Below, piece after piece: positions 15,769 through 63,191 of a stretch of DNA of 64,000 nt (positions are counted from its first letter, which is position 1; every line of letters starts with the position of its first letter). The DNA comes from Mustelus asterias (lineage: Eukaryota). Where the stretch lies: NCBI RefSeq assembly GCF_964213995.1, contig NC_135829.1, positions 6,696,001 through 6,760,000 of the forward strand, written 5' to 3'. The notes under the pieces were generated by a model. The model was not told where the DNA came from, did no database searches, and was given only the letters and a program-made list of their open reading frames with translations. The translations under genes and the position numbers were made by a program.

Positions 15769-15872
15769 ACAATAAGGGTTTTAACAACACCAGGTTAAAG
15801 TCCAACAGGTTTATTTGGTAGCAAATACCATTAGCTTTCGGAGCGCTGCTCCTTCGTCAGATGGAGCGGAAA
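15769..15872 (-). mobile_element. Penelope-like element family A, single short arm
   Basis: CAACACCAGGTTAAAGTCCAACAGGTTTATTTGG shared with other copies. Confidence 0.8.
15828..15864 (-). ncRNA. Minimal type I hammerhead ribozyme motif
   Basis: minus strand: ccat-CTGACGA-aGGAGCagcGCTCC-GAA-AGCT-A-atgg. Confidence 0.7.
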
Positions 15873-16494
15873 TGACAGAGCAGCAGTAAAGGTGCGACAA
15901 TTGGCTTCAACACCCCTCAACTAGGAAACATCACCCAGAAAATTCTATTTCCTAAGCACTGTCCAATGATACCTATTGGAAGGTATCACACGTGTAAGCA
16001 TTTGGTGCGGACAGAACCGGATGCTGTCAAGTTGCACTCATTGTGTTGCCTGGCCGGACATGCAAAATATAGAATCTCCACTCAGGAATCATTAGAAGCT
16101 AATTGATGCCTCTAGAACCATATCGCAGAAAATCAGTGCTTTCAAAGGTGTAGGGAAGGTAGAGATAATAAGGGGAGGGGAGAAAAAAAGTAACTGCAGA
16201 ACAAAATGAAAAATCAACCAAATACGTGAATAACAATGGAGCTTCTCTAATTTCCTTATTAAGATGAATGTGTTGGTTTGGAATTTGTGTGGCTGAGCTA
16301 TTGAGCTATTGATAAATCACTCGCAAATGTGGACGTGAGCTTCCTTATTCAGCTGGGGCAATGCTCAACTTTCTCTCTCTCTCTCTTTTCCCCCCCCCCA
16401 CTACCACCCCCCCCCCCCCAAAAAAAACCCTCTCTCTTTCTCCACCCCCCCCCCCCCCAAAAAAAAACAATCTGCATCCTTTTCTTTCCATTAG

Positions 16495-16644
16495 GCTGTG
16501 TGTGGTGCTGAGGGCCTCTCCCTGGCATTCCGCCATATTGTCAGCTCACTGCTGTGGTACTGTTACCATCATACCTGTGAGGACCTGCTGCATGAGGTCA
16601 TCGTCTGCGTGGGATATTTCACCGTAAACCATCCTGACAATCAG
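16495..16644 (+). CDS. SCAPER: SCAPER coding exon
   Basis: cattag|GCT...AATCAG|gtaagc; 150 nt; AVCGAEGLSLAFRHIVSSLLWYCYHHTCEDLLHEVIVCVGYFTVNHPDNQ. Confidence 0.96.
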
Positions 16645-16964
16645 GTAAGCAATAATTACAGGGCAGTGAGAACACAAAAGAAAAGAGTGACAGCCTCCCC
16701 CATCAGCTGGTAACAAAATGCCAACTGCAGTTTTAGTTTAAAAGATTGCTGTGACATTTTGAACCGATGCTGCAAGGAAATAATTGTTTTGCTATAATTT
16801 CTGTTGATAGTTTTTTATTTTCAATATTCATCATTTTCACTTTCTCTCCTCAAGCAAGTTTCTTTTTGTTAATTGTTTTTCTTATTTATAAAACAAAAAG
16901 GGTTCATCAGAATTCTAAACGTTTCTCAGGAAGCTTGGAATAAACCAGAGTTTTCATTTTGGTT

Positions 16965-17255
16965 TGATTTGATTTATTATTGTTGCATGTATTAGTATAC
17001 AGAGAAAAGTATTGTTTCTTGCACGCTATACAGACAAAACATACCGTTCATAAAGAAGAAAATGAGAGAGCGCAGAATGTAGTGTTACAGTCATAGCTAG
17101 GGCGTAAAGAAAGATCAACTTAATGCGAGGTAGGTCCATTCAAAAGTCTGATGGCAGCAGGGAAGAAGCTGCTCTTGAGTTGGTTGGTACATGACCTCAG
17201 ACTTTTGTATCTTTTTCCCGACAGAAGAAGGTGGAAGAGAGAATGTCCGGGTATG
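16965..17255 (-). mobile_element. Rex1/Babar LINE 3' fragment
   Basis: LKSSFFPAAIRLLN frame; (ATCAA)n tail. Confidence 0.75.
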
Positions 17256-18252
17256 TCATATTTACCTCTCCAGGAATACTTGTATTTACCCAACAACTTT
17301 TAGAATTCAGAATATACCAAAGCACGGTACATGAAGCATTTTCAATCATGATCAAATGTCATTGAAATACATCCTTTTTTCTTGGTTAAAATGTTATGAC
17401 AACTTGCCTGAATAATGGAGTTTGATTTGTACTAAGAGCCCCAGTGACACACGGTCCTGGACCAGTGCCTATTCAATCACTGACGTTAATTCAGTCTTCC
17501 GGCACTCTAACCCCTCCAAATTCCTCCAAATAGATTGTCCAAGCATGCTATAAATATAAACACATATGGCCTTATCAAGGCTCATGGTGGGAAAGGTAGA
17601 GTTGAGGATTGTCATATCCGACCAATCATGATTTCATTGAATGACGGAGCGGACTCGACGGGCCGAATGGCCTACTTCTGCTCCCACCTCTTATGGTGCA
17701 AAGAAAGTTTAAGAATGCATAGAAAAATTTACCATAGTTATTTTAATTACGCTGTTTCACTTTTATGTATATATGCATAAACCCACAAATCTTAGATTTG
17801 CTACAGCACAGGAGGCCATTCGACCTGTCTTGTCTGCATTGGCTCTACAGACAGGCAATGCCGTTCCCCCGCCGTCTCCCCATAAGCCTGCACATGCATT
17901 CTTACTTTTCAGACTATAGTCCTCTTCTCTCTCGAATGCCTCAATGGAACCTGCCTCCACCACACTCTCAGGCAACGCATTCCACATCCTAACCACTCAC
18001 TAAGTGAAAAGGTTTCTCCTCCCGTCTGCATTGCTTTCTTTGCCAATTATTCACGTGAAAATAAAGATGAAGACATGACAAAAACAAAAAAATGTACAGC
18101 TTGTAAAATGTGAAAGGGATGCTTCTGTAAATAGAAAGGATTATATAATGGCAGATTACAGATAAACTGATATTCAAAATCTAATCCATTTACGTCTGTG
18201 GGACAAATTTCCTATCTTTTTTAAAAACTTGATCTTTGCTCAGCTCCATTTC

Positions 18253-18537
18253 AGTGGTCAGCACTGCTGCCACACAGCGCCAGGGGCCCGGGTTCGATAC
18301 CCGGCTTGGGTCACTGTCTGTGTGGAGTCTGCACGTTCTCCCTGCGGGGGTTTCCTCCGGGTGCTCCGGTTTCCTCCCACAGTCCGGAAGACGTGCTGGT
18401 TAAGTGCATTGGCCGTGCTAAATTCTCCCTCAGTGTACCCGAACAGGCGCCGGAGTGTGGCGACTGGGAGATTTTCACAGTTACTTCATTGCAGTGTTAA
18501 TGCGAGCCTACTTGTGACACTAATAAAATAAACTTTT
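18253..18537 (+). mobile_element. HE1-like SINE type B
   Basis: head, core and alternative tail. Confidence 0.8.
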
Positions 18538-19819
18538 CTAAACTTGAGCTAAAAGCACTATGCAGGACGAAAAACCCAGTTCAGATTAGTACTTTGAAGG
18601 CAAAGCATGATTCTGTTCCCTTCCTTATGAAGGTGGGATATAAGCCACTATATAGTTTTACCTGGTGTATTTTAGTGGGACTTTTTAAGATGTTGAGGGA
18701 CTGGGTGAATTCACTGTACTTGTTCACATTAAATTGCAAGAGCAGGTTAAGAAGAATAAGTTCAAGTGAGTAAAAAAGGTACATTTAGAACAATGTGTTG
18801 GCATTTTTCTTCACGCAACAAATGACAATGCAGAGAATAGAGTGCCAGGAGCAGGAGTTGGAGTGAAAATCCTGGTATCTTTTTAAGAAAATTGGATGCT
18901 AAAATGGGTAGATTGTAGGATTCTTTTGGATGGGCGTATTAAAATTGACTAAATGGCTGTCTTTATCTGTAGTGTGTTACGTTTTCACAGGGGATTTCCA
19001 CAGTAACTTCATTGCATTGTTAGTGTAAGTCTACTTGTGACTAAACAAAAAAATAAAAGTTGAATTGCGTGCAATGTAGATTGAAGAAGTTGTGCTAGAT
19101 TAATGGGATTTCTTTCCAGTTAACCAAACAATCCAGATTGCAGAAAAAAGACAGTGTTTTAACAATGACATGAGTCTTTTAATTAGTTCCAACCCGTCCA
19201 GGACAGACATGTCGTTGCCTGTACTATGTAACTGCCCAATAGTGGCTTTGTATTTCTCTGGCTCCTGATGAATGAAAACATTCATAAACATTCAGGCCAG
19301 CAGATTGACTTTGGATGCGAATCCCAGTTTGCACGGGTCAGTGAGCTTTGAAATCCGAGTCTTTAGTCCATTTCCCTTCAAGTGGTTCAAGTCATCCGTT
19401 GAGCTCAGTAATTAACACCCATACAAATCTATATGCCGTTCTGGGCTAAACGTGAAAGGAAACTTGACTGGATTTCTGCTTTTCCTATTTAAAATATTTT
19501 CCACTCCCTCCTTCTAAGTGCCACACTCGGTCACCAAATAAATATTACATGACAGAGAATAGATGGACGACCACAACTGGGGCAAACTGCTTAAAGAGTT
19601 TTGAATGGACTTACTTTGCATTAAGTTGATCTTTCTCTACACCCCAGCTATGACTGTAACACTACATTCTGCACCCCCTCCTTTCCTTCTCTATGAACGG
19701 TATGCTTTGTCTGTATAGCGTGCAAGAAGCAATACTTTTCACTGTATACTAATACAATAATAAATCAAATCAAATCGAAGAACATGGCAATCGTGTTGGT
19801 CAAACTCAAATAGAGTTAT

Positions 19820-20345
19820 AGTCATAGAGGTTTACAGCATGGAAACAGGCCCTTCGGCCCAACTTGTCCATGCCACCCTTTTTTTCTTTAACCTCTAAGC
19901 TAATCCCAATTGCCCGCATTTGGCCCTTGTCCTTCTATACCCACCTTACCCATGTAACTGTCTAAATGCTTTTTAGAAGACAAAATTGTACCCACCTCTA
20001 TTACTACCTCTGGCAACTTGTTCCAGACACTCACCACCCTCTGTGTGAAAAACTTGCCCCTCTGGACACTTTTGTATCTCTCCCCTCTCATCTTAAACCT
20101 ATGGCCTCTAGTTTTAGTCTCCCCTCCCTTTGGGAAAAGATATTGACTATCCAGCTGATCTATGCCCCTCATTATTTTATAGATCTCTATAAGATCACCC
20201 CTCAGCCTCCTACGCTTCAGAGAAAAAAGTCCCAGTCTATCCAACCTCTCCTTATAACTCAAACCATCAAGTCCCGGTAGCATCCTAGTAAATCTCTTCT
20301 GCACTCTTTCTAGTTTAATAATATCCTTTCTATAATAGGGTGACC
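19820..20345 (-). mobile_element. CR1 LINE 3' fragment
   Basis: VQKRFTRMLPGL..SYKERLDRLGLFSL..FFTQRVVSVWNKLP. Confidence 0.9.
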
Positions 20346-20919
20346 ATAAATGATGATGTTATGTTGCTCTTATTGCTTAGAAGTGGAGGCCCATGTTATA
20401 CAAGTGCTGCTCCCTTGTTTCATCTCGTACTGAGTAATCAGGAGTGGGGGCTGAAGGTTTGCGCTGTTATCGATAGCAGTTCTCCAATAGATAGACAATG
20501 TAAATCCAGGACTCTGTTGTTTATGCCTCTGAGCAGCACATGTATCATGAGGAGTTATCGGCAACAGCAAATTATTAGAAAATGTCTTTTTTAAAGAAAA
20601 GTGGCCAAAAAAGTAAAATATTAACTTTACTCAACTCGATGAATAGCTCGCACATGAACATAGGGAGCCTCGTCAATACACAAGTTAAGAGCCACATAAA
20701 ACTCTGGTCTAATGATCATGTTCAAGTTCTGGTCTTGAAATGGCTTTCCATAAAAGAAACTTTTAAAATTCCACATGTGCTACAATAAGTATCAGGTACT
20801 TGAATAAAGAAGCATAATACAACTGAAGTCTAATCTCAACTGGGAGGAATATTCCTGCTACATGAGGTTAGCTTTCAAAGATTATACACAGTCCAGTTTA
20901 CAGTAAAACTTTTTATTTT

Positions 20920-23063: not shown

Positions 23064-23107
23064 AGTCTGTGCTTACCCCAGTCCAACGCCGGCATCTCCA
23101 CATCATG
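23064..23107 (+). mobile_element. Penelope-like family A minimal insertion (tail only)
   Basis: CTGTGCTTACCCCAGTCCAACGCCGGCATCTCCACATCATG flanked by the 12-bp direct repeat GCAGTAGTAAGA. Confidence 0.8.
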
Positions 23108-28661: not shown

Positions 28662-29039
28662 GTTACACAAGTCTGCACAGAGTTTTCTATCAATTGACAA
28701 TTGTATTGCAGCACTGTCCTTGTAGTAAAATGTGTATCTCTGGAAAGAGGAACAGCAGTCTTGCAAGTTGAATTTTATATCTTTTCTCCAGAGGTAAAGA
28801 GCAAAGGTCTGATGCTGGCATGCTCACTGACAGCTCTGTTATTTTATTCTTGAATCCAGACTGTTAAATGTCATGAGGGCAACTCATATAAACCGCATTT
28901 TTGTATTTATTCATGTGATGTGGGTAGAACTTGCAAGGCTCCATTTACTGCCCATTCCTAGTTACTGTGAGCAGGTAATGGGCCTTCTCCTTGAACCATT
29001 GTGGTCCTTGTGTTGTCAGTGCTATCATGAAGGTATTAG

Positions 29040-29210
29040 CCATGATGTGGAGTTGCCGGTGTTGGACTGGGATAGGCACAGTAAGTAGTCTCACAACACC
29101 AGGTTAAAGTCCAACAGGTTTACTCACCTGTTGAAGGGGCAGCGCTCTGAAAGCTCGTGCTATCAAATAAACCTGTTGGACTTTAACCTGGTGTTGTGAG
29201 ACCACTTACA
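29040..29210. mobile_element. Penelope-like family A fold-back element
   Basis: inverted arms; TSD ATGAAGGTATTAG (29027-29039 / 29211-29223); mutated hammerhead at 29125-29159. Confidence 0.85.
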
Positions 29211-31520: not shown

Positions 31521-33030
31521 TGGTGAATTAATGAATGAATGACATTTAAAATTGGTCACACTGCTGTAATCTCAACAAGACATGCTGTAACCTTTTACAG
31601 TGAAACTTCAATTTCTGCACAAGATGATTAAGTAAGCAAAATTGAGGCTTTTCTATTTTTTCCCCCAGTCACTAAATATTATGAAATGATGGCATTCACA
31701 GCCCTCATAACACAATCAGTGAGCCTAAAATATGCCACAAAGCATTCCTTGCTTTCCTTCTGAGCGTGCAACTTGTGGTGGTTTGGAGCAAAGCCCGAAG
31801 TCACACAGTAGCCCAAGGATTATTATGTGAGCAGGTTGGAGCACTGCATAATTAGCTTGTAAGCATGCTCCACTGAACTGCAATCTGCCACAGTTGGTGT
31901 CTTTTAGCTAAGTGAAAGAGGTCCCATGATGTCGAGCGTAGATTCAAAAGGGAAAACTTTGTAATAAGAGTAATGTCCTTTATCATGCTAGAGTTTTTTT
32001 TAGCACTTTTAAGGGCAAATTATGGTTCCTAATTAAATTTTTGTGGCCTTAATTAAAGAATCTGCTTGGGTTTTACGATGGTTCCGTTACACTTTCCACT
32101 CTGCTGTGATTTAATTATTCTGATGAATGCAATTAGTATGCTAAGGCAATTGTTCATTTCATTTGCATATTATATTGGATAATTGGATGAAGCTGGAATG
32201 ATTAAATTACGAGAATGACAGATGAATCCGCTTTTGTTCAGGACAAGAATTAAGTTTGTAAGAATGACCACAGTGGGAATTGGTGACCTTAGCATATTCA
32301 TTAAAAAAAATGCATATTGTTAATTTGTAAAAGTGTTGCTAGGTGCTGACTGCGTAGCCCTTGATCTCAGCTGGCAACCAAAAGCAGCATATTTTTCACG
32401 TCCCTCCTGTACCCAGTTGTTAAAGAATTATGTGGCAACTTCATTTTTCAAACTTTCTTAACTAATGATAACGCACAGGCGTTACAGAACTAAGCAGCGA
32501 TAAACCAACGAGTGCAAAAAGATAATGCCCTTTATTGTTTGTCAAAGTACTGCTCAGTTAGGGGCTGAACCACAGCTCAGATCCTCGTTTAGGTTAGTTG
32601 ATTCCAACGAGGGTAACATTGGGATGATACACTTAGCAATGCCCTTCAGCTGGTGAGGCGCAACATTGATCAGTGCTCTCACTGCTAAGTTGTGTGTGCT
32701 AAGCGCAACTGTAAGCCCTCATGTTTGATTAGCCATCTGATATTCAGCGCATTGGCTTACAGATGTCCAAGATAACAGGCAGCTGCTGGCACCCTTGGGA
32801 CCATATCCCAGCAAGTGTCGACACCCCTAGCGAAAGCTCAGGAGTAACCAACAAGTGAGAGCAGCTTAATTGGAGAGTACAGTTTTTAATTTTAAATGAA
32901 AATGGGTAGTTTTGTTTTGCTTTTATGACAACTCCACATATATCGAGGGCTCATTGGCAGAGGTTAATATATAGGTTGACAGGTATTAAACAATCAAGCC
33001 AGCAGCTTTGAACATCACCTTCATGTAGGT

Positions 33031-33360
33031 GGGCACGGTGGCACAGTGGTTAGCACCGCTACCTCACAGTGCCAGGGACCAGGGTTCGATTCCCGGCTTG
33101 GGTCACTGTCTCTGCGGAGTTTGCACATTCTCCCCGTATCTGCATGTGTTTCCTCCGGGTGCTCCGGTTTCCTCCCGCAGTCCAAAGATGTGCGTGTTCG
33201 GTGGATTGGATATGCTAAATTGTCCCTTAGTGTTAGGGAGACTAACTAGGGTAAATGCATGAGGTTATGGGGGGATAGGGCCTGGGCGGGATTGTGGTCA
33301 TGCAGACTCGATGGGCCGAATGGCCTCCTTCTGTACTGTAGGGTTCTATGATTCTATGAT
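33031..33360 (+). mobile_element. HE1 SINE
   Basis: full length. Confidence 0.85.
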
Positions 33361-34595: not shown

Positions 34596-34745
34596 CATGA
34601 TGTGGAGATGCTGGCATTGGACTGGGGTAAACACAGTAAGAAGTTTAACAACACCAGGTTAAAGTCCAACAGGTTTATTTGGTGGCTTTTGCTACCAAAT
34701 AAACCTGTTGGACTTTAACCTGGTGTTGTTAAACTTCTTACTGTG
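34596..34745. mobile_element. Penelope-like family A fold-back element (no ribozyme)
   Basis: near-perfect ~55-bp hairpin; TSD TGATACTTTCCA (34586-34597 / 34744-34755). Confidence 0.88.
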
Positions 34746-38623: not shown

Positions 38624-38822
38624 TGATGTGGAGATGCCGGCGTTGGACTGGGGTGGGCACAGTAAGAAGTCTCACAACACCAGGTTAAAGCCCAACAGGT
38701 TTATTTGGAAGCTTTCGGAGCTCTGCCCCTTCATCAGGTGAGACTCACCTGATGAAGGAGCAGCGCTCTGAAAGCTCGTGATTCCAAATAAATCTTTAAC
38801 CTGGTGTTGTGAGACTTCTTAC
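38624..38822. mobile_element. Penelope-like family A fold-back element with two opposed hammerheads
   Basis: TSD ACTATAA(T/A)AGCAGT (38611-38624 / 38821-38834); hammerhead on - at 38709-38740 and on + at 38746-38780. Confidence 0.88.
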
Positions 38823-39641
38823 TATAAAAGCAGTTTCACACGCCTTTAGATTTCTGACCAGAAAAGGTCACTCCTCCTGTCTGAATTATTTTCAAATGGC
38901 ACATTTTATCTTTGAACATTTCTGCCTTTGATAATACTTCTGTATCATTTGATAGATACAGATCATTTGATCCATCCTAACTCACCCACCCATAAAGACA
39001 GTACAAACCTCCATAACATTGTTCAGCTACTGTGGCCACCAATTTCATATCTATGTGACGATCTCAGTTCTAATTCTTCCTTTCACTAATTTGAACCTTG
39101 ATCAACTTGTCCTAATCTGATGGTTTATAGAGTTTGGATGTATCTTTTCTATCCTATTTTCTGTCTTTTACACCTCTTTCAAGTCTCCAAAAATACCCAT
39201 TTGGAGGCTGAGAAGTTTGAATCTTGGAGTTTATTCATCAACACCCGAAGAAGGACTTCAAGTCATGGTGTTGATCCCAAAGTGACCCCACTGCATTTTC
39301 CAGAATTGACGTTGCGAGGATGGACTTCCAGTGGAGTCCACCACTGCAGCCAATGAAGTTGTATGGTCCTACAGCAGTTGAAATGGGCAATGTCAGATTT
39401 GAAAGACATGGCAGGGAGAAAGGTATGTCACTGTCTCTGCATTCAGAGTAACTGGGAGAAGCTAGAGCCTCCAGCATTCCGTAAGCAACCCTTGGTGTTT
39501 GCTCCCACAACCGCCATCATCATCACCTGTTTCCTAGTTGCCATTCCAATAGGCAGAGGCAGAAACTGGGCAAACCATTTGAGACTAAGGACTTTGTTAG
39601 CAGGATGGGAAACCCCACCCTCTCTCAAACAGCTTAGAGAG

Positions 39642-41129
39642 AGGGCGGCTCGGTGGCACAGTGATTAGCAGTGCTGCCGCACAGCGCCAGCGACCCAGTT
39701 TCGATTCCCAGCTTGGGTCACTGTGTGGAGTTTGCATATAGAACATAGAACATAGAACATTACAGCGCAGAACAGGCCCTTCGGCCCACGATGTTGCACC
39801 GACCAGTTAAAAAAAAAACTGTGACCCTCCAACCTAAACCAATTTCTTTTCGTCCATGAACCTATCTACGGATCTCTTAAACGCCCCCAAACTAGGCGCA
39901 TTTACTACTGATGCTGGCAGGGCATTCCAATCCCTCACCACCCTCTGGGTAAAGAACCTACCCCTGACATCGGTTCTATAACTACCCCCCCTCAATTTAA
40001 AGCCATGCCCCCTCGTGCTGGATTTCTCCATCAGAGGAAAAAGGCTATCACTATCCACCCTATCTAAACCTCTAATCATCTTATATGTTTCAATAAGATC
40101 CCCTCTTAGCCGCCGCCTTTCCAGCGAAAACAATCCCAAATCCCTCAGCCTCTCCTCATAGGATCTCCCCTCCATACCAGGCAACATCCTGGTAAACCTC
40201 CTCTGCACCCTCTCCAAAGCCTCCACATCCTTCCTGTAATGTGGGGACCAGAACTGCACACAGTACTCCAAGTGCGGCCGCACCAGAGTTGTGTACAGTT
40301 GCAACATAACGCTACGACTCCTAAATTCAATCCCCCTACCAATAAACGCCAAGACACCATATGCCTTCTTAACAACCTTATCTACTTGATTCCCAACTTT
40401 CAGGGATCTATGCACACATACACCTAGATCCCTCTGCTCCTCCACACTATTCAAAGTCCTCCCGTTAGCCCTATACTCAACACATCTGTTATTCCTACCA
40501 AAGTGAATTACCTCACACTTCTCCGCATTAAACTCCATCCGCCACCTCTCGGCCCAACTTTGCAACCTGTCTAAGTCTTCCTGCAAACTACGACACCCTT
40601 CCTCACTGTCTACCACACCACCGACTTTGGTGTCATCAGCAAATTTGCTAATCCACCCAACTATACCCTCATCCAGATCATTAATAAATATTACAAACAG
40701 CAGTGGCCCCAAAACAGATTCCTGAGGTACACCACTTGTAACCGCACTCCATGATGAATATTTACTATCAACCACCACCCTCTGTTTCCTATCCGCTAGC
40801 CAATTCCTGATCCAATTTCCTAGATCACCCCCAATCCCATACATCTGCATTTTCTGCAGAAGCCTACCATGGTGAACCTTATCAAACGCCTTACTAAAAT
40901 CCATATATACCACCATATAAATCCATATATATTCTCCCCGTGTCTGCTTGGGTTTCCTCCCACAGTCCAAAGATGCGCAAGGTTAAGTTGATTGACCCTA
41001 GTGTCAGGAGGACTAGCAGGGTAAATAAGTGGGGCTACGAGGATAGGGTCTGGGTGGGATTGTGGTTGGTGCAGACTTGATGGGCCGGATGGCCTCCTCC
41101 TGCAATGTAGGGATTCTATGATTTCTATG
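39642..41129 (+). mobile_element. HE1 SINE split by a CR1 insertion
   Basis: GAGTTTGCAT | insertion | ATTCTCCCCGTG rejoins the SINE core. Confidence 0.85.
39740..40930 (-). mobile_element. CR1/HER1 LINE, 5'-truncated, open ORF
   Basis: VVYMDFSKAFDKV...KFADD...YCVQFWSP; (ATGTTCT)n tail. Confidence 0.95.
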
Positions 41130-45507: not shown

Positions 45508-45777
45508 CTTTCTAAATAGCGCCATGGGATTTTAAATGTTCACATTAGGGAGGGTTGGGTTAATGTCTTGCCAGAAAGACATCTCAGTGCAGCACTCCTT
45601 CAGCGCTGCTTCAGGAGCATTGTCCTAGAGTACATGCTCAAATCTCTGGAGTGGTGTTTTAACCAATAACAGCTAGCATTTATGTAATACCAAGCTGCCT
45701 GACCGCTGCATTGCCAAGCTAAAGTTGACAGTGTGCTAAATGACATATTAGGGCAGGAGATCAAAAGCTTGGTCAAT

Positions 45778-45980
45778 GACGTGGAGATGCCGGCATTGGA
45801 TTGGGGTGGACACAGGAGTCTCACAACACCAGGTTAAAACCAACAGGTTTATTTGGTAGCCCGAGCTTTCGGAGCGCTGTCCCTGATGGGGCACTCACCT
45901 GATGAAGGGGCAGCGCTCCGAAAGCTCGTGCCAGCAAATAAACCTGTTGGACTTTAACCTGGTGTTGTGAGACTACTTAC
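45778..45980. mobile_element. Penelope-like family A fold-back element
   Basis: TSD CTTGGTCAATGA (45768-45779 / 45980-45991); intact hammerhead on + at 45896-45930. Confidence 0.88.
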
Positions 45981-46681
45981 TTGGTCAATGAAGTAGGCTT
46001 TAAGGAGCATTTTAAACAGAATGGAGGGGTGAGAGAACATTAGGGAAGGAATTCCGGAGCTCTGGTGAAGGTGCTGCTGACTAAGAAACGACTGAAAGCT
46101 GATAATGTTAACCTAACTTGATGTGATAAATCCATATTGCATTAATATCATTTGTGCCCAGCTCAATTTTCACAAAAGCAATAAATATCCTACAGATGTG
46201 AGTACACCGTTGCAAAAAGAAAAGCTGCCAGATTTCATGGTGTTTTTTTCAGCATTGAAGTCACGTCATATTCAATTTATCATTACTCGCTGGCACATTC
46301 TGAAACCTAGTGTTGAAAATGTTCTTATGTTTCATAGTTTGGGTGGGAATGTGTCAGATTTTATGGACTGTGCAGGGCAACAATTTGCACTTAATGGGCT
46401 GCCATCATGCACTTCGAGATTCAGAATTAAACACTGATTAAAAAGGTAGGACTTGGACTTCTTTAACACCCTTCACCACTTCAGGACACCCCGAAGCACT
46501 TAACAGCCAATTAAATACTTTTGAAGTGCAGCCACTGTTATAATGTAAGAAACGCAGCAACCAATTTGCGGACAGCAAGGTCCCATAAACAGCAATGTGA
46601 TAATGAGCAGATAATCTGCCTTAGTGATGTTGAGGGATAAATATTGGCCGGGACTCGGGAGAACCTCCCTCCCTCTTTGAG

Positions 46682-46822
46682 ACAGTAAGAAGTCTCACAA
46701 CACCTGGTTAAAGTCCAACAGGTTTATTTGGTAGCACAAGTTTTCGGAGCGCTGCTCCTTCATCAGGTAAGTGGAGAGTTGGGTTCACAAACAGGGCATA
46801 TATAGACACAGATTCAATTGCG
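46682..46822 (-). mobile_element. Penelope-like family A single arm
   Basis: ACAGTAAGAAGTCTCACAACACC...; degenerate hammerhead. Confidence 0.75.
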
Positions 46823-46909
46823 ATATAATGCCCAGCTCAGAGGTATATTTATCACATAAAGATGGAAATATGTTGTACGTCATTGCGTATCTAAAATATT
46901 AAGAACGTT

Positions 46910-51568: not shown

Positions 51569-51673
51569 ATGCAAATGCATGATTTTTAATCAATTTTAGA
51601 TGTGTGCATAATACACTCTGTTTTACTGGTTTTTACCCCACTTTATGAACATAATATTTCCTTTGATTTCCAG

Positions 51674-51865
51674 GTGACAGTGCAATCAGGCCGCCATCCC
51701 ACAGTCCTTCAGAAGCTCTGCCAGCTGCCTTTTCAGTACTTTAGTGATCAACGGTTGATCAAAGTCCTGTTCCCAACACTAATCACAGCTTGTTACAACA
51801 ATCCGCAGAACAAGGTCATCTTGGAGCAGGAGATGAGCTGCATTCTGCTAGCTACCTTCATCCAG
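51674..51865 (+). CDS. SCAPER: SCAPER coding exon
   Basis: ttccag|GTG...ATCCAG|gtaagc; 192 nt; VTVQSGRHPTVLQKLCQLPFQYFSDQRLIKVLFPTLITACYNNPQNKVILEQEMSCILLATFIQ. Confidence 0.96.
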
Positions 51866-53347: not shown

Positions 53348-53384
53348 TAGGCAAGGAAGACAATGCAAAATTCAAAATAAGTTC

Positions 53385-54162: not shown

Positions 54163-54214
54163 GATTTTGCTCAGAGTTTGAGTCAGTCTGACAATAAACC
54201 TTCTCAACCGAGGG
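54163..54214 (+). CDS. SCAPER: SCAPER penultimate coding exon
   Basis: poly-T tract, catag|GAT...AGGG|gtaagt; 52 nt; DFAQSLSQSDNKPSQPR, phase 1 end. Confidence 0.9.
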
Positions 54215-54306
54215 GTAAGTATCACGCAATCGCTCTCCGTGCACTTGTCCTGAATAATGACAGCATCAATGTTCTGTTTAACAATTTGTTGTTGTTCCCA
54301 TTGCAG

Positions 54307-54413
54307 AGAAGGCCCCTGTAGCTCAAGACTACCTTGAATTCTCCAACCGGTTCCCCCGTGAGATGTGGGAGGATGCTCGGAAGTTTTTTTTAAACAAAGA
54401 GACAGTTTGTTAA
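54307..54413 (+). CDS. SCAPER: SCAPER last coding exon to the stop codon
   Basis: ttgcag|AG...TAA; (E)KAPVAQDYLEFSNRFPREMWEDARKFFLNKETVC*; resembles the recalled SCAPER C-terminus QDYLELANRFPQQAWEEARQFFLKKE. Confidence 0.93.
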
Positions 54414-54740
54414 GGATAAAATAAAAAGGGGGGAAAAGTACTCAACATCACAAAACATTAATTGATTTAAAACCTAGTCTTGTAATTCATCCACTGACAT
54501 TATGTTCTAGAATGTTCTTATATTTGATTTGCACAAATTGTATATAGTCCCTGTTGTACATATGATCATCATTGTAATCACTTTTTGACAATTTTTTAAT
54601 GTGAACCTTTCTAATGTATGTGCATATAGAATAACTCATTAGTTTTGGTTGTTTAGGGTGATACAGCAGTCCCCTGTGGAGTTCATCAACTAATTTTATT
54701 TATTAGAAGTATATCGGTGACTCAAATATGCTGATGACCC

Positions 54741-56129: not shown

Positions 56130-56458
56130 ATTTTTCTATTTATTCATTCGTGGTACATGGGCGTCGCTGACTGAGCCAGCATTTATTGCCCATCCCTAGT
56201 TGCCGTTGTTCAGAGGGCAGTTGAGACTCACATGTAGGCCAGACCAGGTAAGGATGGCAGATTCCTTCCCTAAGTTAGTGAACCAGATGGGTTTTTCCGA
56301 CAATGGTTGCGTCAGTAGATTCTTAATTCCAGATATTTTTCACTGAAATCAAATTCCACCATCTGCCGTGGCGGGATTCGAACCCAGGTCCCCCAGAACA
56401 TTAGTTGAGTTTCTGGATTAATAATCTAGTGATAATACCACTAGACTATTGCCTCCCC
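56130..56458 (-). mobile_element. tRNA-derived SINE (same family as 30340)
   Basis: GGTTCGAATCCC B box on the minus strand; shared tail. Confidence 0.65.
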
Positions 56459-57460
56459 CCCATATTCTGGATTCCCCAACCAGGAGCAAGAGCTTCTGTG
56501 TCTACCCTGTCAAATCATTTCAGAATCTTATATGTTTCAATGATGCCACCTCTCATTCATCTAAGCTCTAGGGTATGTAGACCCAATTTACTTCAAGCCC
56601 GTAGCCTCCATGTGCATTATTCCCAAAATGTGAGTGAACCACGCTGATCTTAATGTATTTCTTTACTGGCTGGGAGAGCCTCTGGTTTTCCTCCCACAGT
56701 CTGAAAGATGTGCTGGTTAGATACATTGACCCGAACAGGCACCGGATTGTGGTGACTAGGGCAATTTCACAGTAACTTCATTGCATTGTTAATGTAAACC
56801 TTACTTGTGACTAATAAATAATGCACACATCAATTGCCCAACCCTAGTAATCATGCAAAGCTGCTGGGTTTTATAACAGGCTCACTGGGCTACTTCAGAG
56901 TCCTTTGAATTTCAAACCATTAGGCATAGACTTAGAATCAGGTGTCGACCAGACTGAATAGGGAGGCCAGATTCCTTCCCTGAAAGACGTCTATGAACCA
57001 GTTGATTGTGAACAACAGCTTTCACAGTCTTCTAGCAGTTATGGCCAGAACATGCCAGGTGGGGTTCTAACTGGCAGCTTCTGGGTCATTAATCCTGTAC
57101 CTTAACCACCTTGGTAAGAAGGAAGAGATTTTTCTATTTATGGAGTGCTTTTCATGATCAGCAGACATCTCAAAGCACCGTTACAAGCCAATGGAATAAT
57201 TCTTGACGTGTAGTCACTGTTGTAATGTAGGAAACACGGCAGCTAATTTACTCACAGCAAGTTCCCACAAACAGCAGTGTGATCATTACTGCATGATACA
57301 ATGTTTTTTTAGGATTAATGCCAGAGTCACTGAGTGTATAGTGAATAAGTTAAATTCTGCTCCAGGATCTGGGATTTCAGGATTTTTACCAAAGCTTTTA
57401 GAGGATATTCTGAAATTCCATCCAATTTCCACAAACTAGTGCCCCTGATCTTTAATGATC

Positions 57461-57990
57461 ATGATGTGGAGATGTCGGCGTTGGACTGGGGTGGGCACAG
57501 TAAGAAGTCTCACAACACCAGGTTAAAGTCCAACAGGTTTATTTGGAATCACGAGCTTTCGGAGCGCTGCTCCTTCCTCAGGTGAGTGGAGAGTTGGGTT
57601 CACAAACACAGCCTATATAGGCTAAGATACATTTGCAAGATAATGGTTAGAATGCAAGTCTTTGCAGGTACAGACAGTGCGAGTGGAGAGAGGGATAATC
57701 ACAGGTTAAAGAGGTGTGAATTGTCTCAAGCCAGGACAGTTAGTAGGCTTTTGCAAGCCCAGGCCAGATGGTGGGGTTACACAATAGTGTGACATGAACC
57801 CAAGATCCCGGTTGAGGCCGTCCTCACGCATGCGGAACTTGGCTATCAGTTTCTGCTTAGCGATTCTGCGTTGTCGTGTGTCTTGCAGGCTGTCTTGGAG
57901 AACGCTTACCCGAAGATCGGAGGCTGAATGCCCTCGACTGCTCCCCAACAGGAAGGAAACACTCCTGCCTGATGATTGTCGCACGCATGA
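57461..57990 (-). mobile_element. Penelope-like family A, single 5'-truncated arm with tail
   Basis: HSASDLRVSVLQ..QKLIAKFR..GLNRDLGF; TSD TTAAT(G/A)ATCATG (57452-57463 / 57991-58002); hammerhead on - at 57550-57584. Confidence 0.88.
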
Positions 57991-58552
57991 TTAATAATCA
58001 TGCAATGCTTAAGATTCAGAATTATCCTCAATTGTTACTGAACGTAAACCTTTCTGCATCATCGTTCCAACCTGTGTGTGTCCAGGTCTTGGTCTTTTAC
58101 CTGGTTCACTCAGTGGACCAGGCAAATGCACCAAAGCGGTTGTTGTATTTATTGCGACTGAAAGCAGAATCCCCCTCTTATTTTTGTGACACAGAGCCCT
58201 GGATCGCAGTGACATGTTGTTCTGTAGGATGCAGGTCTGTGCCTCCAGCCTACCCATGACAGAGTTCCCAAGCTCAGCTCCAGGTGGGAAGCACAGGTCA
58301 GTTTTCCCCAAAAGTAAGGAAGCCGAAGTCAGAACAATGTAGGTTGAGCTGGATTTCCGCTGAAGGGGCAGAAAAATCTAACACGATGTACTAGAACAGA
58401 GAAGACACCATTCAACCCCACAAGGCTGTCTATTTGTGACCAATTAATTCCACACCGCATCTACCTTATCACCAAGTTACAAGAGAATTGTCAACTAAGG
58501 CTGGTGTCCAGGGTAAATGACACATGAATTTTGAGAACAGATTATGTGAAGG

Positions 58553-59345
58553 TTAGAACCATAGAATCTCTACAGTGAAGACGGAGGCCATTTCGAGTCT
58601 ACACTGATTCTTCGACAGAAAGTCTTACACAGGCTCCCCCCACCCCCTCCCTGTAACCCCGCACATTTAACATAGCCAAACCACCGAACCTGCACATCTT
58701 TGGACACTAAAGGGCAATTTAGCATAGCCAATCCACCTAACCACATCTTTGGACACTAAAGGGCAATTTAGCATAGCTAATCCACCTAATCTACACATCT
58801 TTGGAGTGCAGGAGGAAACCGGAGCACCCGAAGGAAACCCTCGCAGACATGGGGAAAACGTGCAGACTCCGCACTGACTGTGACCCGATGCCAGAATCGG
58901 GCCCGAGTCCCTGGTGCTGTGAGGCAGCAGTGCTAACCACTGTGCCGCCGTAAGTGAAGAGAGGAAAAAATGCATTAAAATGGAAAATAAATCTTCGTTT
59001 GAAAATATAAAATGGAAGAAAAAACATGTACGATTTCTCTCCGCCTGGAGCTCAGTATTGAATAAATTCAGAGTTGCATTTATATAGCACCTTTCACAAC
59101 CTCAGGACACCACAAAGCCACTTACAGCAAACAAAGTACTTTTGAAATGTAGTCACTCGTTTCAAAGTAAGAAATGGGCAGCCAATTTGCACAAAGCAGG
59201 ATTCCACGGTGATAAAAACAGATGCTTTTTTTCTTGTGATATTAGTTCAGCGATAAACATTGGCCAGGGGAATGGAAGAAACTCCACTGGTCTTTAAAAG
59301 TATTGCCTTTGGACCCTTTACATCCATTGAGAAGACAGATGGAGC
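58553..59345 (+). repeat. Local segmental duplication copy 1 (HE1 on -, unique spacer, DeuSINE-like)
   Basis: unique spacer TAAGTGAAGAGAGGAAA...GGAGCTCAGTATTGAATAAATTCAGAG recurs at about 61724-61850. Confidence 0.85.
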
Positions 59346-59609
59346 CTCAGGTTTAACGTCTCACCCAAAACACAAGGAACAGATTTCATTTCTAGCTCAC
59401 AGACGTTAAGTACCCAAGAGATATAGTGCTGAAACATACAGATGCAGCGACATGCTGGTTTGATGCCTTGTCCGTGCTGATTTCAGGCAGGGCAGAGATG
59501 GACGGCCACAGTATTAAAATTGGATCTTACCTCTCTTGAGACCAGATAAGCAAACAGAGATGAGAGAAGCCAGAATAGTTATCTTTGGAGCAGAGGTTAT
59601 GGGGAGATT

Positions 59610-60667
59610 TAGAACCATAGAAAATTACAGCTCAGAAACAGGCCTTTTGGCCCTTCTTGTCTGTGCCGAACCATTTTTTGCCTAGTCCCACTGACCTGCA
59701 CTTGGACCATATCCCTCCACACCCCTCTCATTCATGAACCCGTCCAAGTTTTTCTTAAATGTTAAAAGTGACCCCGCATTTACCACTTTATCCGGCAGCT
59801 CATTCCACACTCCCACCACTCTCTGCGTGAAGAAGCCCCCCCTAATATTCCCTTTAAACTTTTCTCCTTTCACCCTTAACCCATGCCCTCTGGTTTCTTT
59901 CTCCCCTAGCCTCAGCGGAAAAAGCCTGCTTGCATTCACTCTATCTATACCCATCAAAATCTTATACACCTCTATCAAATCTCCCCTCAATCTTCTACGG
60001 TCCAGGGAATAAAGTCCCAACCTATTCAATCTCTCTCTGTAACTCAGCTTCTCAAGTCCCGGCAACATCCTTGTGAACCTTCTCTGCACTCTTTCAACCT
60101 TATTTACATCCTTCCTGTAACTAGGTGACCAAAACTGTACACAATACTCCAAATTCGGCCTCACCAATGCCTTATATAACCTTACCATAACACTCCAACT
60201 TTTATACTCGATACTCTGATTTATAAAGGCCAATGTACCAAAGGCACTCTTTACGACCCTATCCACCTGTGACGTCACTTTTAGGGAATTCTGTTCAACT
60301 GCACTCTTCAGAGTCCTACCATTTACCCTGTACGTTCTACTTGGTTTGTCCTTCCAATGTGCAATATCTCACACTTGTCTGCGTTAAATTCCATTTGCCA
60401 TTTTTCAGCCCATTTTTCTAGTTGGTCCAAATCCCTCTGCAAGCTTTGAAAACCTTCCTCACTGTCCACTACACCTCCAATCTTTGTATCATCAGCAAAC
60501 TTGCTGATCCAATTTACCACATTATCATCCAGATCATTGATATAGATGACAAACAACAATGGACCCAACACCGATCCCTGCGGCACACCACTAGTCACAG
60601 GCCTCCACTCAGAGAAGCAATCCTCCACAACCACTCTCTGGCTTCTTCCATTGAGCCAGTGTCTAAT
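59610..60667 (-). mobile_element. CR1 LINE, 5'-truncated, with internal deletion
   Basis: GVPQGSVLGPLLF, KFADD, RPNLEYCVQFWSP; inserted in an older CR1. Confidence 0.92.
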
Positions 60668-60729
60668 TTAAAAGAGATGTTCAAAATTACAAATAGTTTT
60701 AATAGAATAAGTAAGAAAAATAGAATAAA

Positions 60730-61035
60730 CAGTCCAAAGATATGTAGATTAGATGGATTGGTCATGCTAAATTGTCCTTTAGTGTCCAAAGATGTGTCGG
60801 TTGAGGGGATTGGCCATGCTAAATTGCCCCTTATTGTGCAAAGATGTGCAGGTTAGGTGAATTGGCCATGCTAAATTGTCCTTTAGTGTCCAATGTAGAT
60901 TAGGTGGATTAACCATGGTGAATGTGTGGGGTTACGGGAATAAATCGGGGTGGGCCTGGCAAGGTGCTGTTTCGGAGAGTTGGTGTAGACTCGATGGGCC
61001 GAATTGCCTCCTTCTGCACTGTAGGGATTCGATGG
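60730..61035 (+). mobile_element. HE1 fragment with an internal ~55-bp unit repeated about 4 times
   Basis: (GTCCAAAGATGTG..GGTTAGGTGGATTGGCCATGCTAAATTG.CC.TTAGT)n. Confidence 0.75.
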
Positions 61036-62062
61036 TTTCCACCAGCAGAAGATCAGTTACCTGAAGACAGAAACTTAAGGTCACAATCAAAAGAACCAGT
61101 CCTATATGAGGGAGCATTAGGCAACCCTCTCCACTGCGAACCAACTATAGAAAACAATGGTGCCCATTGCATTTGGCCAATCCTCAGGCTTGGCTGGGAT
61201 ACAGGCAGTCTGACTGACTGATGATAGAGGAGAACTTGAGTGAGGAGAGAAAGGGGGTGGCCGCTATCTATTGAGCCGCACCCCAACAAAAGCTTGTGCT
61301 ATGTAGACAGGCATAGAATTTATAGATATGTGGGAAGAAATTACAAGTTTATAATCCAATTGTAAGATCCACACAGTTCAGAGCGATTTGTGAATCCCTC
61401 TTCTGAGCAATAATGAATAGAATGTGTAGTCATAGAATCCTACAGTGCAGAATAAGGCCATTCAGCCCATTGAGCCTGCACCAACCCTCTGACTGAGTAT
61501 CTTACCCAGGTCCCAACCCCCAATCTATCCCACACATTTACCATGGCTAATCCACCTAACCTACACATCTTTGGACTGTGGGAGGAAACTGGAGCACCCG
61601 GAGGAAACCCACGCAGACACGGGGAGAACGTACAAACTCCACACAGTCACCCAAGGCCAGAATTGAACCTGGGTCCCTGGTGCTGTGAGGCAGCAGTGCT
61701 AACTACTGTGCCACCGTGCCGCCCTAAGTGAAGAGAGGAAACATTACATTAAAATGGAAAATAAATCTTCCTTTGAAAATATAAAATGGAAGAAAAAACA
61801 TGTACGCTTTCTCTCTGCCTGGAGCTCAGTATTGAATAAATTCAGAGGTGCATTTATATAGCACCTTTCACAACCTCAGGAACATTACAGCCAATGAAGT
61901 ACTTTTGAAGTGTAGTCACTTGTTTCAATGTAAAATGGGCAGCCAAGTTGCACAAAGCAAGATTCCACATGATAAAGACATGATTTTTTTTTGTGATGTT
62001 GGTTGAGCGATAAACATTGGTCAGGGCATCAGAGGAAACTCCACTGGTCTTTAAAAATACTG

Positions 62063-63191
62063 ATGGTAGCCATGATGTGGAGATGTCGGCGTTGGACGGG
62101 TGGGCACAGTAAGGAGTCTCACAACTCCAGGTTAAAGTCCAACAGGTTTATTTGGTAGCACAAGCCACTAGCTTTCGGAACGCTGCTCCTTCGTTAGGTA
62201 AGTGGGAGTTCTGTTCACAAACAGGGCATATAAAGACACAAACTCAATTTACAAAATAATGGTTGGAATGCGAGTCTTTACAGGTAATCAAGTCTTAAAG
62301 GTACAGACAACGTGAGTGGAGAGAGGGTTAAGCACAGGTTAAAGAGATGTGTATTGTCTCCAGCCAGGACAGTTAGTGAGATTTTGCAAGCCCAGGCAAG
62401 TCGTGGAGGTTACAGATAGTGTGACATGAACCCAAGATCCCGGTTGAGGCCGTCCTCATGTGTGCGGAACTTGGCTATCAGTTTCTGCTCAGCGATTCTG
62501 CATTGTCGTGTGTCGTGAAGGCCGCCTCGGAGAATGCTTACCCGAAACGTTACCGGGTACACGGTACATACTCTTGCAACTCGGCCAACGTTGTCTACCT
62601 GATACGCTGCAGGAAAGGATGTCCCAATGCATGGTACATTGGGGAAACCATGCAGACGCTACGACAATGGACAAATGAACACCACTCGACAATCACCAGG
62701 CAGGAGTGTTCTCTTCCTGTTGGGGAGCACTTCAGCAGTCATGGGCATTCAGCCTCTGATCTTCGGGTAAGCGTTCCCCAAGGCGGCCTTCACGACACAT
62801 GACAGCGCAGAGTCGCTGAGCAGAGACTGATAGCCAAGTTCCGCACACATGAGGACGGCCTCAACCGGGATCTTGGGTTCATGTCACACTATCTGTAACC
62901 CCCACGACTTGCCTGGGCTTGCAAAATCTCACTAACTGTCCTGGCTGGAGACAATACACACCTCTGTGCTTAACCCTCTCTCCACTCACATTGTCTGTAC
63001 CTTTAAGACTTGATTACCTGTAAAGACTCGCATTCCAACCATTATCTTGTAAATTGAGTTTGTGTCTTTATATGCCCTGTTTGTGAACGCAACTCCCACT
63101 CACCTGATGAAGGGGCAGTGCTCCGAAAGCTAGTGGCTTGTGCTACAAATAAACCTGTTGGACTTTAACCTGGTGTTGTGAGACTTCTTGT
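62063..63191. mobile_element. Penelope-like family A, long fold-back element with GIY-YIG endonuclease fragment
   Basis: YSCNSANVVYLIRCRKGCPNAWYIGET..EHH..GEHF (GIY-YIG with CCHH); arms about 62105-62546 and 62762-63189 are inverted; TSD TTTAAAAATACTG (62050-62062 / 63192-63204). Confidence 0.92.
63101..63135 (+). ncRNA. Minimal type I hammerhead ribozyme motif
   Basis: cac-CTGATGA-aGGGGCagtGCTCC-GAA-AGCT-A-gtg. Confidence 0.7.

What the first reader, a model, noticed from the sequence alone, without database searches (positions are those of the whole stretch)
15828..63135. Minimal hammerhead ribozymes with palindromic stem III and covariation among copies
Seen: stemI-CTGANGA-a-stemII(GGAGC/GCTCC)-GAA-AGCT-H-stemI occurs at 15828(-), 38746(+), 45896(+), 57550(-) and 63101(+), with damaged copies at 29125, 38709(-), 46735 and 62166. 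N7 varies (T, C, G) and H17 varies (A, C), as the hammerhead core permits. Stem I covaries: cac/gtg in most copies, ccat/atgg at 15828. Established: PLEs carry minimal type I hammerheads in which helix III is replaced by a palindromic tetranucleotide and which are thought to cleave as dimers. Inference: the + strand copies at 38746 and 45896 sit in the SCAPER pre-mRNA intron in sense orientation and could cleave it.
Basis: partly seen in the sequence, partly recalled or inferred. Interest (0 to 1): 0.7.

Follow-up and report, generated by a model that had tools for sequence, protein, structure and literature searches.

The report
Shark Penelope hammerheads inside SCAPER
These motifs are real copies of a small RNA motif already known from Penelope-like jumping genes, carried here by a hugely abundant shark element; they are predicted to be folded shut inside the SCAPER transcript and unlikely to cut it, but the places where the element's genomic copies begin likely record both where its RNA starts and where the ribozyme cuts it.

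Summary
They lie in the terminal repeat (pLTR) of one shark Penelope-like retrotransposon with Neptune/Nematis-type motifs, present in at least 174,699 copies. This is the minimal hammerhead of Cervera and De la Pena 2014. The stem I change is one subfamily-level event, not many. The core carries no shared variant in 38 columns, while private mutations hit core and flank at similar rates: selection acted on the master elements and is not detectable on inserted copies. The SCAPER inference is not supported: both intronic sense copies are predicted to be locked in hairpins with their own upstream antisense twins, lie 7 kb apart, and one has lost the G10.1-C11.1 pair. The fresher point is where copies begin. 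In subfamily A, 24 of 62 begin 4-8 nt before the core, often after an extra G: likely the start of an uncut RNA. In subfamily C, starts exactly at the cut site are about three times those at two nearby positions (787 vs 282 and 239) and look like run-off ends; A and B show no clear peak. The scan noted both patterns before on other DNA. No RNA data were available.

The parts
15828..15864 (-). Intact minimal hammerhead, subfamily B (stem I ccat/atgg, N7=C, H17=A), in a short pLTR fragment (about 15768-15868); antisense to SCAPER, intron 13627-16495
23067..23107 (+). Isolated 41-nt tail fragment of the same element, no ribozyme
29041..29209 (.). Head-to-head insertion: antisense tail plus pLTR end (29041-29122) and a sense copy starting at 29122 with a damaged hammerhead (A6 to U, C11.1 to U); 13-nt target-site duplication at 29027 and 29211
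34596..34745 (.). Head-to-head insertion without a ribozyme core; the sense copy starts near 34682, at the cut site (if A2-type) or 2 nt past it (if subfamily C); 12-nt target-site duplication
38624..38742 (-).
38743..38823 (+). Sense copy, subfamily A, starting 6 nt before the core; hammerhead 38746-38780 with G10.1-U11.1; predicted to be paired throughout with 38624-38742
45776..45879 (-).
45892..45981 (+). Sense copy, subfamily A, starting 7 nt before the core; intact hammerhead 45896-45930; predicted to be paired with 45776-45879; 12-nt target-site duplication around the pair
46682..46830 (-). pLTR fragment with hammerhead whose palindrome is broken (AACT), antisense to SCAPER
57460..57981 (-). 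5'-truncated element: end of the endonuclease frame, full pLTR with TATATA (57619-57614), intact hammerhead 57584-57550 (N7=G), AATAAA and tail; 3 kb past the SCAPER stop codon
62071..62546 (-).
62547..63189 (+). Sense arm: GIY-YIG endonuclease fragment (open frame 62425-62802), pLTR with TATA-like word near 63067, intact hammerhead 63101-63135 (subfamily A2, H17=A), AATAAA at 63148; predicted paired with the antisense arm; 13-nt target-site duplication; past the SCAPER stop codon
3828..54410 (+). Last six coding exons of SCAPER (about 3828-3992, 13382-13627, 16495-16650, 51665-51865, 54163-54219, 54306-stop near 54410); host context only

Best explanation
The motifs are minimal type I hammerheads in the terminal repeat of one very abundant shark Penelope-like retrotransposon, and the copies in this window are truncated insertions that likely do nothing to the SCAPER transcript. 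How it works, step by step. Shown: the motif sits about 90-100 nt upstream of the start codon of an RT plus GIY-YIG reading frame and just upstream of AATAAA; copies end at two fixed points (32-38 nt before the ATG, and at the ATG), are usually short, often head-to-head, with 12-13 nt target duplications; the core is invariant across four subfamilies while stems change in pairs. Inferred: a TATA-box promoter in the pLTR starts the element's RNA about 6 nt before the core, so the hammerhead is the extreme 5' end of the mRNA. Inferred: reverse transcription starts inside this RNA near the ATG and mostly copies uncut RNA, which is why most copies keep the whole motif. Inferred: the ribozyme cuts only part of the RNA, as a dimer through AGCU/AGCU and probably with help from the element's protein, removing the cap end; in subfamily C a few percent of insertions appear to be copied from such cut RNA. 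After insertion the copies likely decay neutrally, and sense copies in head-to-head pairs are predicted to be locked in hairpins.
For: [quoted passage not shown] Selection in masters: 0 of 38 core columns against 20 of 128 flank columns carry an allele shared by three or more copies (p=0.008); H17 is G in 1 of 167; stem II paired in 100% of cells and stem I position 2.1/1.1 is C-G in 15 and U-A in 7 of 22 chosen sequences. No clear selection on inserted copies: singletons 11 of 1155 core cells against 61 of 3851 flank cells, p=0.16. 3' ends: 110 and 117 of 279 in two clusters, as in PMC11167929. RNA start: 24 of 62 subfamily-A copies begin 4-8 nt before C3, with a cliff beyond -7 (23 rows, then 1, of 100 listed, hand tally), a TATATA word 32 nt upstream and an extra G in 72 of 100 listed rows, 34 of 49 after removing rows explained otherwise (hand tally; binomial p 1.5e-8 against 0.30). 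Cut site: 13 of 64 nearby ends fall in 4 of 49 positions (p=0.002); subfamily C genome-wide 787 at the cut against 282 two bases 5' and 239 three bases 3'; 36 of 100 listed cut-site rows show snap-back onto the neighbouring A-run and the next letter is C in 38 against G in 12 (hand tally). Hairpins.
Against: No RNA evidence of any kind was obtained. Subfamilies A and B show no clear peak at the cut site (hand tallies: B 8 plus 3 ambiguous at the cut against 4-19 at other positions of 100 rows; A 3 at the cut against 2-7 at neighbours, about half of the 100 rows being other subfamilies). Subfamilies A2 and C keep a TATA-like word but show only a weak start peak (3 of 40 and 4 of 94 at -8 to -4), so the promoter reading does not explain everything. 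The extra G also appears at cut-site ends, so it may mark any run-off end rather than a cap. Only three positions were counted genome-wide, and the three-mismatch filters pass T-rich snap-back junctions unequally. The predicted active dimer (-15 to -21 kcal/mol) is less stable than two separate monomers (-19 to -26) or the best inactive dimer (-26 to -38). The singleton rate in the core is 0.6 of the flank; the test is weak and does not exclude mild selection. PMC11167929 found no RNA-seq reads at the cut site of a lizard element.
Confidence: 0.8

Rival explanations
1. The sense copies at 38746 and 45896 act as ribozymes in the SCAPER pre-mRNA and cut the intron, alone, with each other or with element RNA in trans.
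For: Both lie in sense orientation in the 35-kb intron; 45896 has an intact core; PMC11167929 reports protein-assisted cleavage for a related element; the retrozyme preprint reports depletion of tandem hammerhead repeats from introns in Xenopus.
Against: Each is preceded by its antisense twin, which is transcribed first; predicted mean pairing of the core to that twin 0.89 and stem II probability 0.0. 7.15 kb apart. 38746 has G10.1-U11.1. The only sense copy with a free core (29125) has A6 mutated. Active dimer not favoured. Orientation counts inside SCAPER are too few to say anything (core-bearing copies with an intact anchor: 3 sense, 6 antisense).
Confidence: 0.04
2. The motif is kept for a non-catalytic job (protein-binding or promoter/initiator element at the RNA's 5' end), and the pile of starts at the cut site in subfamily C comes from reverse-transcriptase stalling or junction microhomology rather than cleavage.
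For: The start peak coincides with the 5' strand of stem I; no clear cut-site peak in A or B; catalytic mutants did not affect insertion in vitro in PMC11167929; minimal hammerheads cut poorly in vitro (PMC4209133); many junctions are fold-backs.
Against: Variation follows catalytic rules exactly (free N7, H17 almost never G, invariant core); the excess is at the scissile bond, not at the 3' foot of stem I (239 at +3); cut-site junctions use 0-1 nt of homology and carry extra C, as run-off ends would.
Confidence: 0.3
3. The hammerheads cut tandem transcripts twice, the unit circularises, and the circle is the main template (the proposal of PMC4209133).
For: Would explain copies that run from the tail through the ribozyme into the 3' end of the reading frame; conserved palindrome suits a dimer.
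Against: A hard 5' boundary upstream of the core in subfamily A needs a linear uncut template; copies that start at the cut site need a linear cut one; no scar at the ligation point beyond subfamily variants; read-through transcripts from host promoters explain long copies as well.
Confidence: 0.12
4. The resemblance to a hammerhead is chance in a repeated sequence.
For: The hits are copies of one repeat; Rfam finds nothing.
Against: All core positions, the extra base after A9, G10.1-C11.1, the palindrome and paired changes match the published minimal motif, in the expected place of the expected element.
Confidence: 0.01

Closest known systems
Minimal hammerheads (min-HHR) in pLTRs of metazoan Penelope-like elements (Cervera and De la Pena 2014, PMC4209133; parts 1-2 of 4 of the text read, supplement file 2 searched by terms, file 1 not searchable)
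   Same: Type I core, no true helix III, palindromic 15.1-16.1, unpaired base between A9 and G10.1, G10.1-C11.1, short stem I, location in the pLTR, mostly single or opposite-strand truncated copies, families with compensatory changes.
   Different: Sharks are not mentioned in the parts read or in supplement file 2 (0 hits); stem II is 5-6 bp rather than 7-8 bp as in Schistosoma; copy number here (at least 13,886 for one tight pattern; about 175,000 pLTR ends) exceeds the 4,000-9,000 reported for coelacanth and Xenopus.
Poseidon element PAc of Anolis carolinensis (Frangieh et al. 2024, PMC11167929; parts 1-2 of 4 read)
   Same: Two internal start sites of reverse transcription that define a 30-40 nt tail; hammerhead at the pLTR-ORF junction; uncut RNA as the main template.
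   Different: In PAc the ORF starts inside the ribozyme and priming is 111-118 nt into the ORF; here the ribozyme lies about 90-100 nt before the ATG and priming is at or before it. That paper found no reads at the cut site; here subfamily C has an excess of genomic starts there. This element has the linker zinc finger that Poseidon lacks.
Neptune/Nematis clades of endonuclease-bearing Penelope-like elements (Craig et al. 2021, PMC8557442; passages read)
   Same: C-terminal GIY-YIG with two cysteines in the core, CX2-5CxxC linker, DKG motif, inverted 5'-truncated copy, one-sided tail.
   Different: No tree against named members was built, so Neptune and Nematis are not told apart here.
Non-LTR retrozymes (bioRxiv 10.64898/2026.07.22.740005; part 1 of 5 and passages read)
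   Same: Type I hammerheads, PLE-derived, reported in one cartilaginous fish.
   Different: Retrozymes are head-to-tail tandem repeats; none of the window's copies is in a tandem array.
Full-length LINE-1 insertions with an extra 5' G from the cap (PMC11702581; passages read) and TATA/Inr in Adineta Penelope pLTRs (PMC3846280; passages read)
   Same: Sharp 5' boundary with an extra G; TATA word upstream of a TCAC-type initiator.
   Different: Here the extra G also appears at cut-site starts, so it is not specific for a cap.

Membership tests
Minimal type I hammerhead of metazoan PLEs | Core C3-U4-G5-A6-N7-G8-A9, G12-A13-A14-A15.1, U16.1-H17 | tested here: met
   5 intact window copies; 11 mismatches in 1155 non-CpG core cells; H17=G in 1 of 167
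Minimal type I hammerhead of metazoan PLEs | Helix III replaced by a short palindrome | tested here: met
   AGCT in 155 of 167
Minimal type I hammerhead of metazoan PLEs | Unpaired base between A9 and G10.1, and G10.1-C11.1 pair | tested here: met
   Extra A invariant (0 mismatches in 121 cells); G-C in 21 of 22, G-U in the 38746 copy
Minimal type I hammerhead of metazoan PLEs | Stems I and II supported by compensatory change | tested here: met
   4 of 10 pairs with two-sided change, 0 of 500 shuffles as high, slid controls 0-1; related sequences, so few independent events, and 17 of the 22 rows were picked as recurring haplotypes with intact cores
Minimal type I hammerhead of metazoan PLEs | Located in the pLTR of a PLE | tested here: met
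Minimal type I hammerhead of metazoan PLEs | Self-cleavage as a dimer or with protein help | not testable with these tools
   Only indirect: excess of genomic starts at the cut site in subfamily C; predicted active dimer not the most stable state
Canonical type I hammerhead (Rfam models) | Match to an Rfam hammerhead model; stable helix III and loop-loop contact | tested here: not met
   0 hammerhead matches among 12 at E up to 5
Endonuclease-bearing Penelope-like element | Single ORF with RT and C-terminal GIY-YIG bearing two cysteines in the core | tested here: met
   892-aa frame in L061, RVT_1 E 3.5e-6 (below curated cut-off), motif scan. The local Pfam copy did not hit the endonuclease; many relatives carry PF01541 (that this is GIY-YIG is recalled)
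Endonuclease-bearing Penelope-like element | pLTR, inverted truncated copy, one-sided 30-40 nt tail, target-site duplication | tested here: met
   clear 12-13 nt duplications for 4 of 8 window insertions, a 7-nt exact word for a fifth, none convincing for 3
Neptune/Nematis clade | CX2-5CxxC zinc-finger-like linker between RT and EN | tested here: met
   CX4CxxC in L061 and 6 of 6 other long copies examined
Neptune/Nematis clade | RT phylogeny with named members | not tested
   No named reference sequences were fetched
Non-LTR retrozyme | Head-to-tail tandem repeats with a hammerhead in each unit | tested here: not met
   No such array among 7 tandem repeats in the window
Domesticated intronic hammerhead (as in human RECK; recalled, also named in a legend of PMC6155905) | Single locus conserved across species with a fold able to cut as a monomer | tested here: inconclusive
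   Fold in context is not met; conservation at the orthologous site in other species could not be examined

The most novel reading that the evidence does not exclude
The genome holds a fossil record of the two 5' ends of a Penelope-like element's RNA: the transcription start just before the hammerhead (subfamily A) and the hammerhead's own cut (subfamily C, which also has the longest stems). If so, a minimal PLE hammerhead does cut in the germ line, cut RNA can be reverse-transcribed and inserted, and the ribozyme is a switch that removes the cap end of the element's mRNA about 100 nt before its start codon.
Probability: 0.55. Interest if true: 0.55.

Novelty: new member of a known kind. Interest (0 to 1): 0.3.

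Why it matters
The finding as stated is a known feature in a new host, and the proposed effect on SCAPER is unlikely. What could matter is that the in vivo activity of minimal PLE hammerheads is an open question (low activity in vitro in PMC4209133; no reads at the cut site and no need for cleavage in PMC11167929). With about 175,000 copies, this shark family lets 5' ends be counted at single-base resolution, and the counts name the subfamily and the haplotypes to test. A cut that removes the cap close to the start codon would also link to the report that self-cleavage can drive cap-independent translation (PMC13725137, abstract and passages read). I found no paper reporting such a genomic footprint or shark PLE hammerheads in six searches of the held library; subscription papers and unseen supplements may hold them.

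Tried and rejected
Rfam scan: no hammerhead match. Pfam on three window fragments: 0 of 3 matched. Public sequencing runs: no RNA holder listed, only contigs; no reads or contigs were laid, so expression, the extent of the SCAPER 3' UTR and the state of the insertion sites in related sharks remain open. A general cut-site footprint in all subfamilies: rejected, not seen in A or B. The extra G as proof of a cap: weakened, because it also appears at cut-site starts. Splicing as the cause of the sharp start in subfamily A: rejected, there is no AG acceptor before it on the sense strand, and copies keep several bases beyond the antisense donor-like word. Core versus flank mismatch as proof of selection on inserted copies (11 of 1155 against 113 of 3463): rejected, since it mixes master-lineage variants with private ones, the stretch 3' of the cut is equally low (15 of 2044, partly because of the anchor used to pick loci), and singletons alone give p=0.16. 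Orientation bias in SCAPER: too few copies. Rows dropped: loci chosen by the hammerhead pattern (L001-L010) or by the endonuclease (L041-L070) were left out of the 280-copy sample; 8 of 280 lacked enough flank or alignment (272 used); the conservation test used the 122 copies reaching at least 45 nt before the core; 8 of 100 rows and 2 of 100 were set aside as mutated full-length copies or internal deletions; 51 of 100 rows were set aside as explained by the inverted copy, mutant full-length or ambiguous. Part of the sample (C1 loci) was chosen around exact matches of the downstream anchor and so leans to young copies.


Full report
1. Observation. The five intact motifs and four damaged ones are at the stated places. 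A relaxed hammerhead descriptor gives 6 hits in the window against 0.01 on average in 200 shuffles, but all hits are copies of one repeat. Stem II is not uniform: GGGGC/GCTCC at 45896 and 63101, and a G-U in place of G10.1-C11.1 at 38746. Rfam finds no hammerhead among 12 matches up to E=5, as expected for a form without helix III.

2. Host context. A 66-aa exon matches SCAPER of sharks at 97-98%. Shark SCAPER maps six exons on the + strand, the last ending near 54410. So 15828 is antisense in one intron; 29125, 38709, 38746, 45896 and 46735 lie in the 35-kb intron 16650-51665; 57550, 62166 and 63101 lie 3-9 kb past the stop codon, with AATAAA-type words at 54420, 54741 and 55170 before them. 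Whether the 3' UTR reaches them is unknown.

3. The element. The 63101 copy is continuous with a GIY-YIG fragment. That fragment has 55,158 first-look candidates in the genome. One locus, L061, holds an inverted pLTR, an 892-aa open frame and a direct pLTR with hammerhead, AATAAA and tail. The frame has an RT match, a CX4CxxC linker and two cysteines within the GIY-YIG core, the marks of Neptune/Nematis elements in PMC8557442 (passages); relatives in other sharks are 81-91% identical. A 28-nt pLTR word occurs 174,699 times, and a tight hammerhead pattern 13,886 times, with 0 for reversed controls. In a sample of 280 copies from 1.65 Mb picked without regard to the ribozyme, 3' ends fall in two clusters, 32-38 nt before the ATG (110 of 279) and at the ATG (117 of 279), the two-start pattern described in PMC11167929. 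Four of eight window insertions have clear 12-13 nt target duplications.

4. Covariation and selection. Four subfamilies emerge: A (cac/gtg, N7 mostly U, H17 mostly C), A2 (H17 mostly A), B (ccat/atgg, N7=C) and C (N7=A, 6-bp stem II, H17=U). On 22 chosen sequences, 4 of 10 pairs change on both sides and stem II is paired in every cell; the rows are related and most were picked for recurring intact haplotypes, so this counts few events. H17 is G in 1 of 167 and the palindrome is AGCT in 155 of 167. Alleles shared by three or more copies occur in 0 of 38 core columns, 20 of 128 flank columns (p=0.008) and 12 of 22 free columns (N7, H17, loop II), whereas singletons are 11 of 1155 against 61 of 3851 (p=0.16). 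Inference: the fold is selected in the elements that keep copying, not measurably in inserted copies.

5. The SCAPER idea. Folded in their natural context on the pre-mRNA strand, 38746, 45896 and 63101 pair with their upstream antisense twins (MFE -133, -144 and -895 kcal/mol; stem II probability 0.0; mean pairing of the core to the twin 0.89, 0.89, 0.96). The twin is transcribed first. The one sense copy whose core is free, 29125, has A6 mutated. Even isolated, the active dimer is predicted less stable than two monomers for all six sequences tried, in line with the low activity in PMC4209133 and the need for protein in PMC11167929. I put cleavage of SCAPER at about 4%.

6. Where copies begin. 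In subfamily A, 24 of 62 copies begin 4-8 nt before C3 (p 5e-16 against a flat spread); three of the window's sense copies do (29122, 38743, 45892). A genome-wide list shows a cliff beyond -7 (hand tally of 100 rows: 25 at -6, 23 at -7, 1 at -8, 8 at -9). A TATATA word lies 32 nt upstream of the A at -6, like the TATA/Inr noted in Adineta pLTRs. The base before that A is G in 72 of 100 listed rows, and in 34 of 49 after setting aside rows explained by the inverted twin or by mutation (hand tally); an extra G marks full-length L1 insertions. Inference: the RNA starts at the 5' edge of stem I, and these copies came from uncut RNA. Against: A2 and C keep a TATA-like word but have weak peaks (3 of 40 and 4 of 94 at -8 to -4); B has lost it and has 3 of 76.

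7. The cut site. In the sample, 13 of 64 nearby ends fall at -1 to +2 (p=0.002), mostly in C (4 of 94 exactly at 1.1). A first genome-wide list gave 12 of 100 rows at the C cut against 3-8 at the other C-only positions (hand tally). Whole-genome counts with matched patterns give 787 at the cut, 282 two bases 5' and 239 three bases 3', about 3.0 and 3.6 times after correcting for base composition; part of the 282 are the opposite strands of cut-site junctions, and the 239 include A2-type copies. Of 100 listed cut-site rows, 27 run straight into TTTT and 9 do so after one or two extra C, a snap-back that uses at most one base of homology, and the next letter is C in 38 against G in 12 (hand tally); at -2 there is no such excess (C 11, T 17). 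These look like run-off ends at a defined RNA end that coincides with the scissile bond. Against: no clear peak in B or A (hand tallies); only three positions were counted; stalling of the enzyme at a structured site is not excluded; the extra G here weakens the cap reading in paragraph 6.

8. Mechanism, committed. Shown: position of the motif, subfamily rules, two 3' start points, the two 5' piles, predicted hairpins. Inferred: a pLTR promoter starts the RNA about 6 nt before the core; reverse transcription primes near the ATG and mostly copies uncut RNA; a minority of RNA is cut after H17, as an AGCU/AGCU dimer and probably with the element's protein, losing its cap end; some cut RNA is copied too; inserted copies decay. 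What the cut does for the element (end processing, translation switch, circle formation) is not shown; a translation role is a lead from PMC13725137 (abstract and passages).

9. Comparison and novelty. The motif meets every sequence feature of the minimal PLE hammerhead of PMC4209133 and fails the canonical Rfam and the tandem retrozyme definitions. Sharks are not named in the parts of that paper I read or in supplement file 2 (file 1 could not be searched); the 2026 retrozyme preprint sampled one cartilaginous fish. Six searches found no report of a genomic cut-site footprint. The scan's own notes report the same element, the capped-start reading and the cut-site footprint on other DNA of this and other sharks; my counts were made before or in the same turn as the first look-up, and those notes are not independent support.

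Noticed in passing
window 38735-38743, 46764-46772, 57579-57587 (+ strand): The antisense strand of the hammerhead's 5' edge reads as a consensus 5' splice donor (CAG|GTGAG, CAG|GTAAGT). Antisense copies in introns, such as 38709 and 46735 in SCAPER, offer cryptic donors on the host strand; this may matter more to host genes than cleavage.
   Followed up: no
L107 (two sites) and L023; L021 and L030: Separate insertions share the same downstream flank in another repeat, which suggests a preferred landing site or duplication after insertion.
   Followed up: no
window 63148-63153 and all pLTR copies: AATAAA lies only 10-20 nt after the cut site and about 45-55 nt after the inferred RNA start, an arrangement like the R region of an LTR; insertions extend 50-90 nt beyond it.
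   Followed up: partly
subfamily C, e.g. L086:9467-9511 (-): The least diverged subfamily has a 6-bp stem II with several G-C/G-U variants and a stem I that can extend across a small internal loop; it is the one with the cut-site excess.
   Followed up: partly
window 1062-1286 and 2182-2406: A 225-nt inverted repeat at 99% complementarity, 895 nt apart, enclosing a SINE copy; possibly the ends of a young DNA transposon.
   Followed up: no
window, more than 20 copies, e.g. 544-849, 33027-33245: A very abundant SINE-like family with a tRNA-like head in both orientations, and long RT-like frames at 2350-3492, 39834-40982 and 59682-60667 (the label CR1-like is recalled, not tested).
   Followed up: no
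window 34634-34743: Weak Rfam microRNA matches (mir-649, mir-3015, below gathering score) are only the hairpin of the inverted pLTR pair.
   Followed up: yes
window 13014-13299: A 147-nt tandem duplication just upstream of a SCAPER exon.
   Followed up: no
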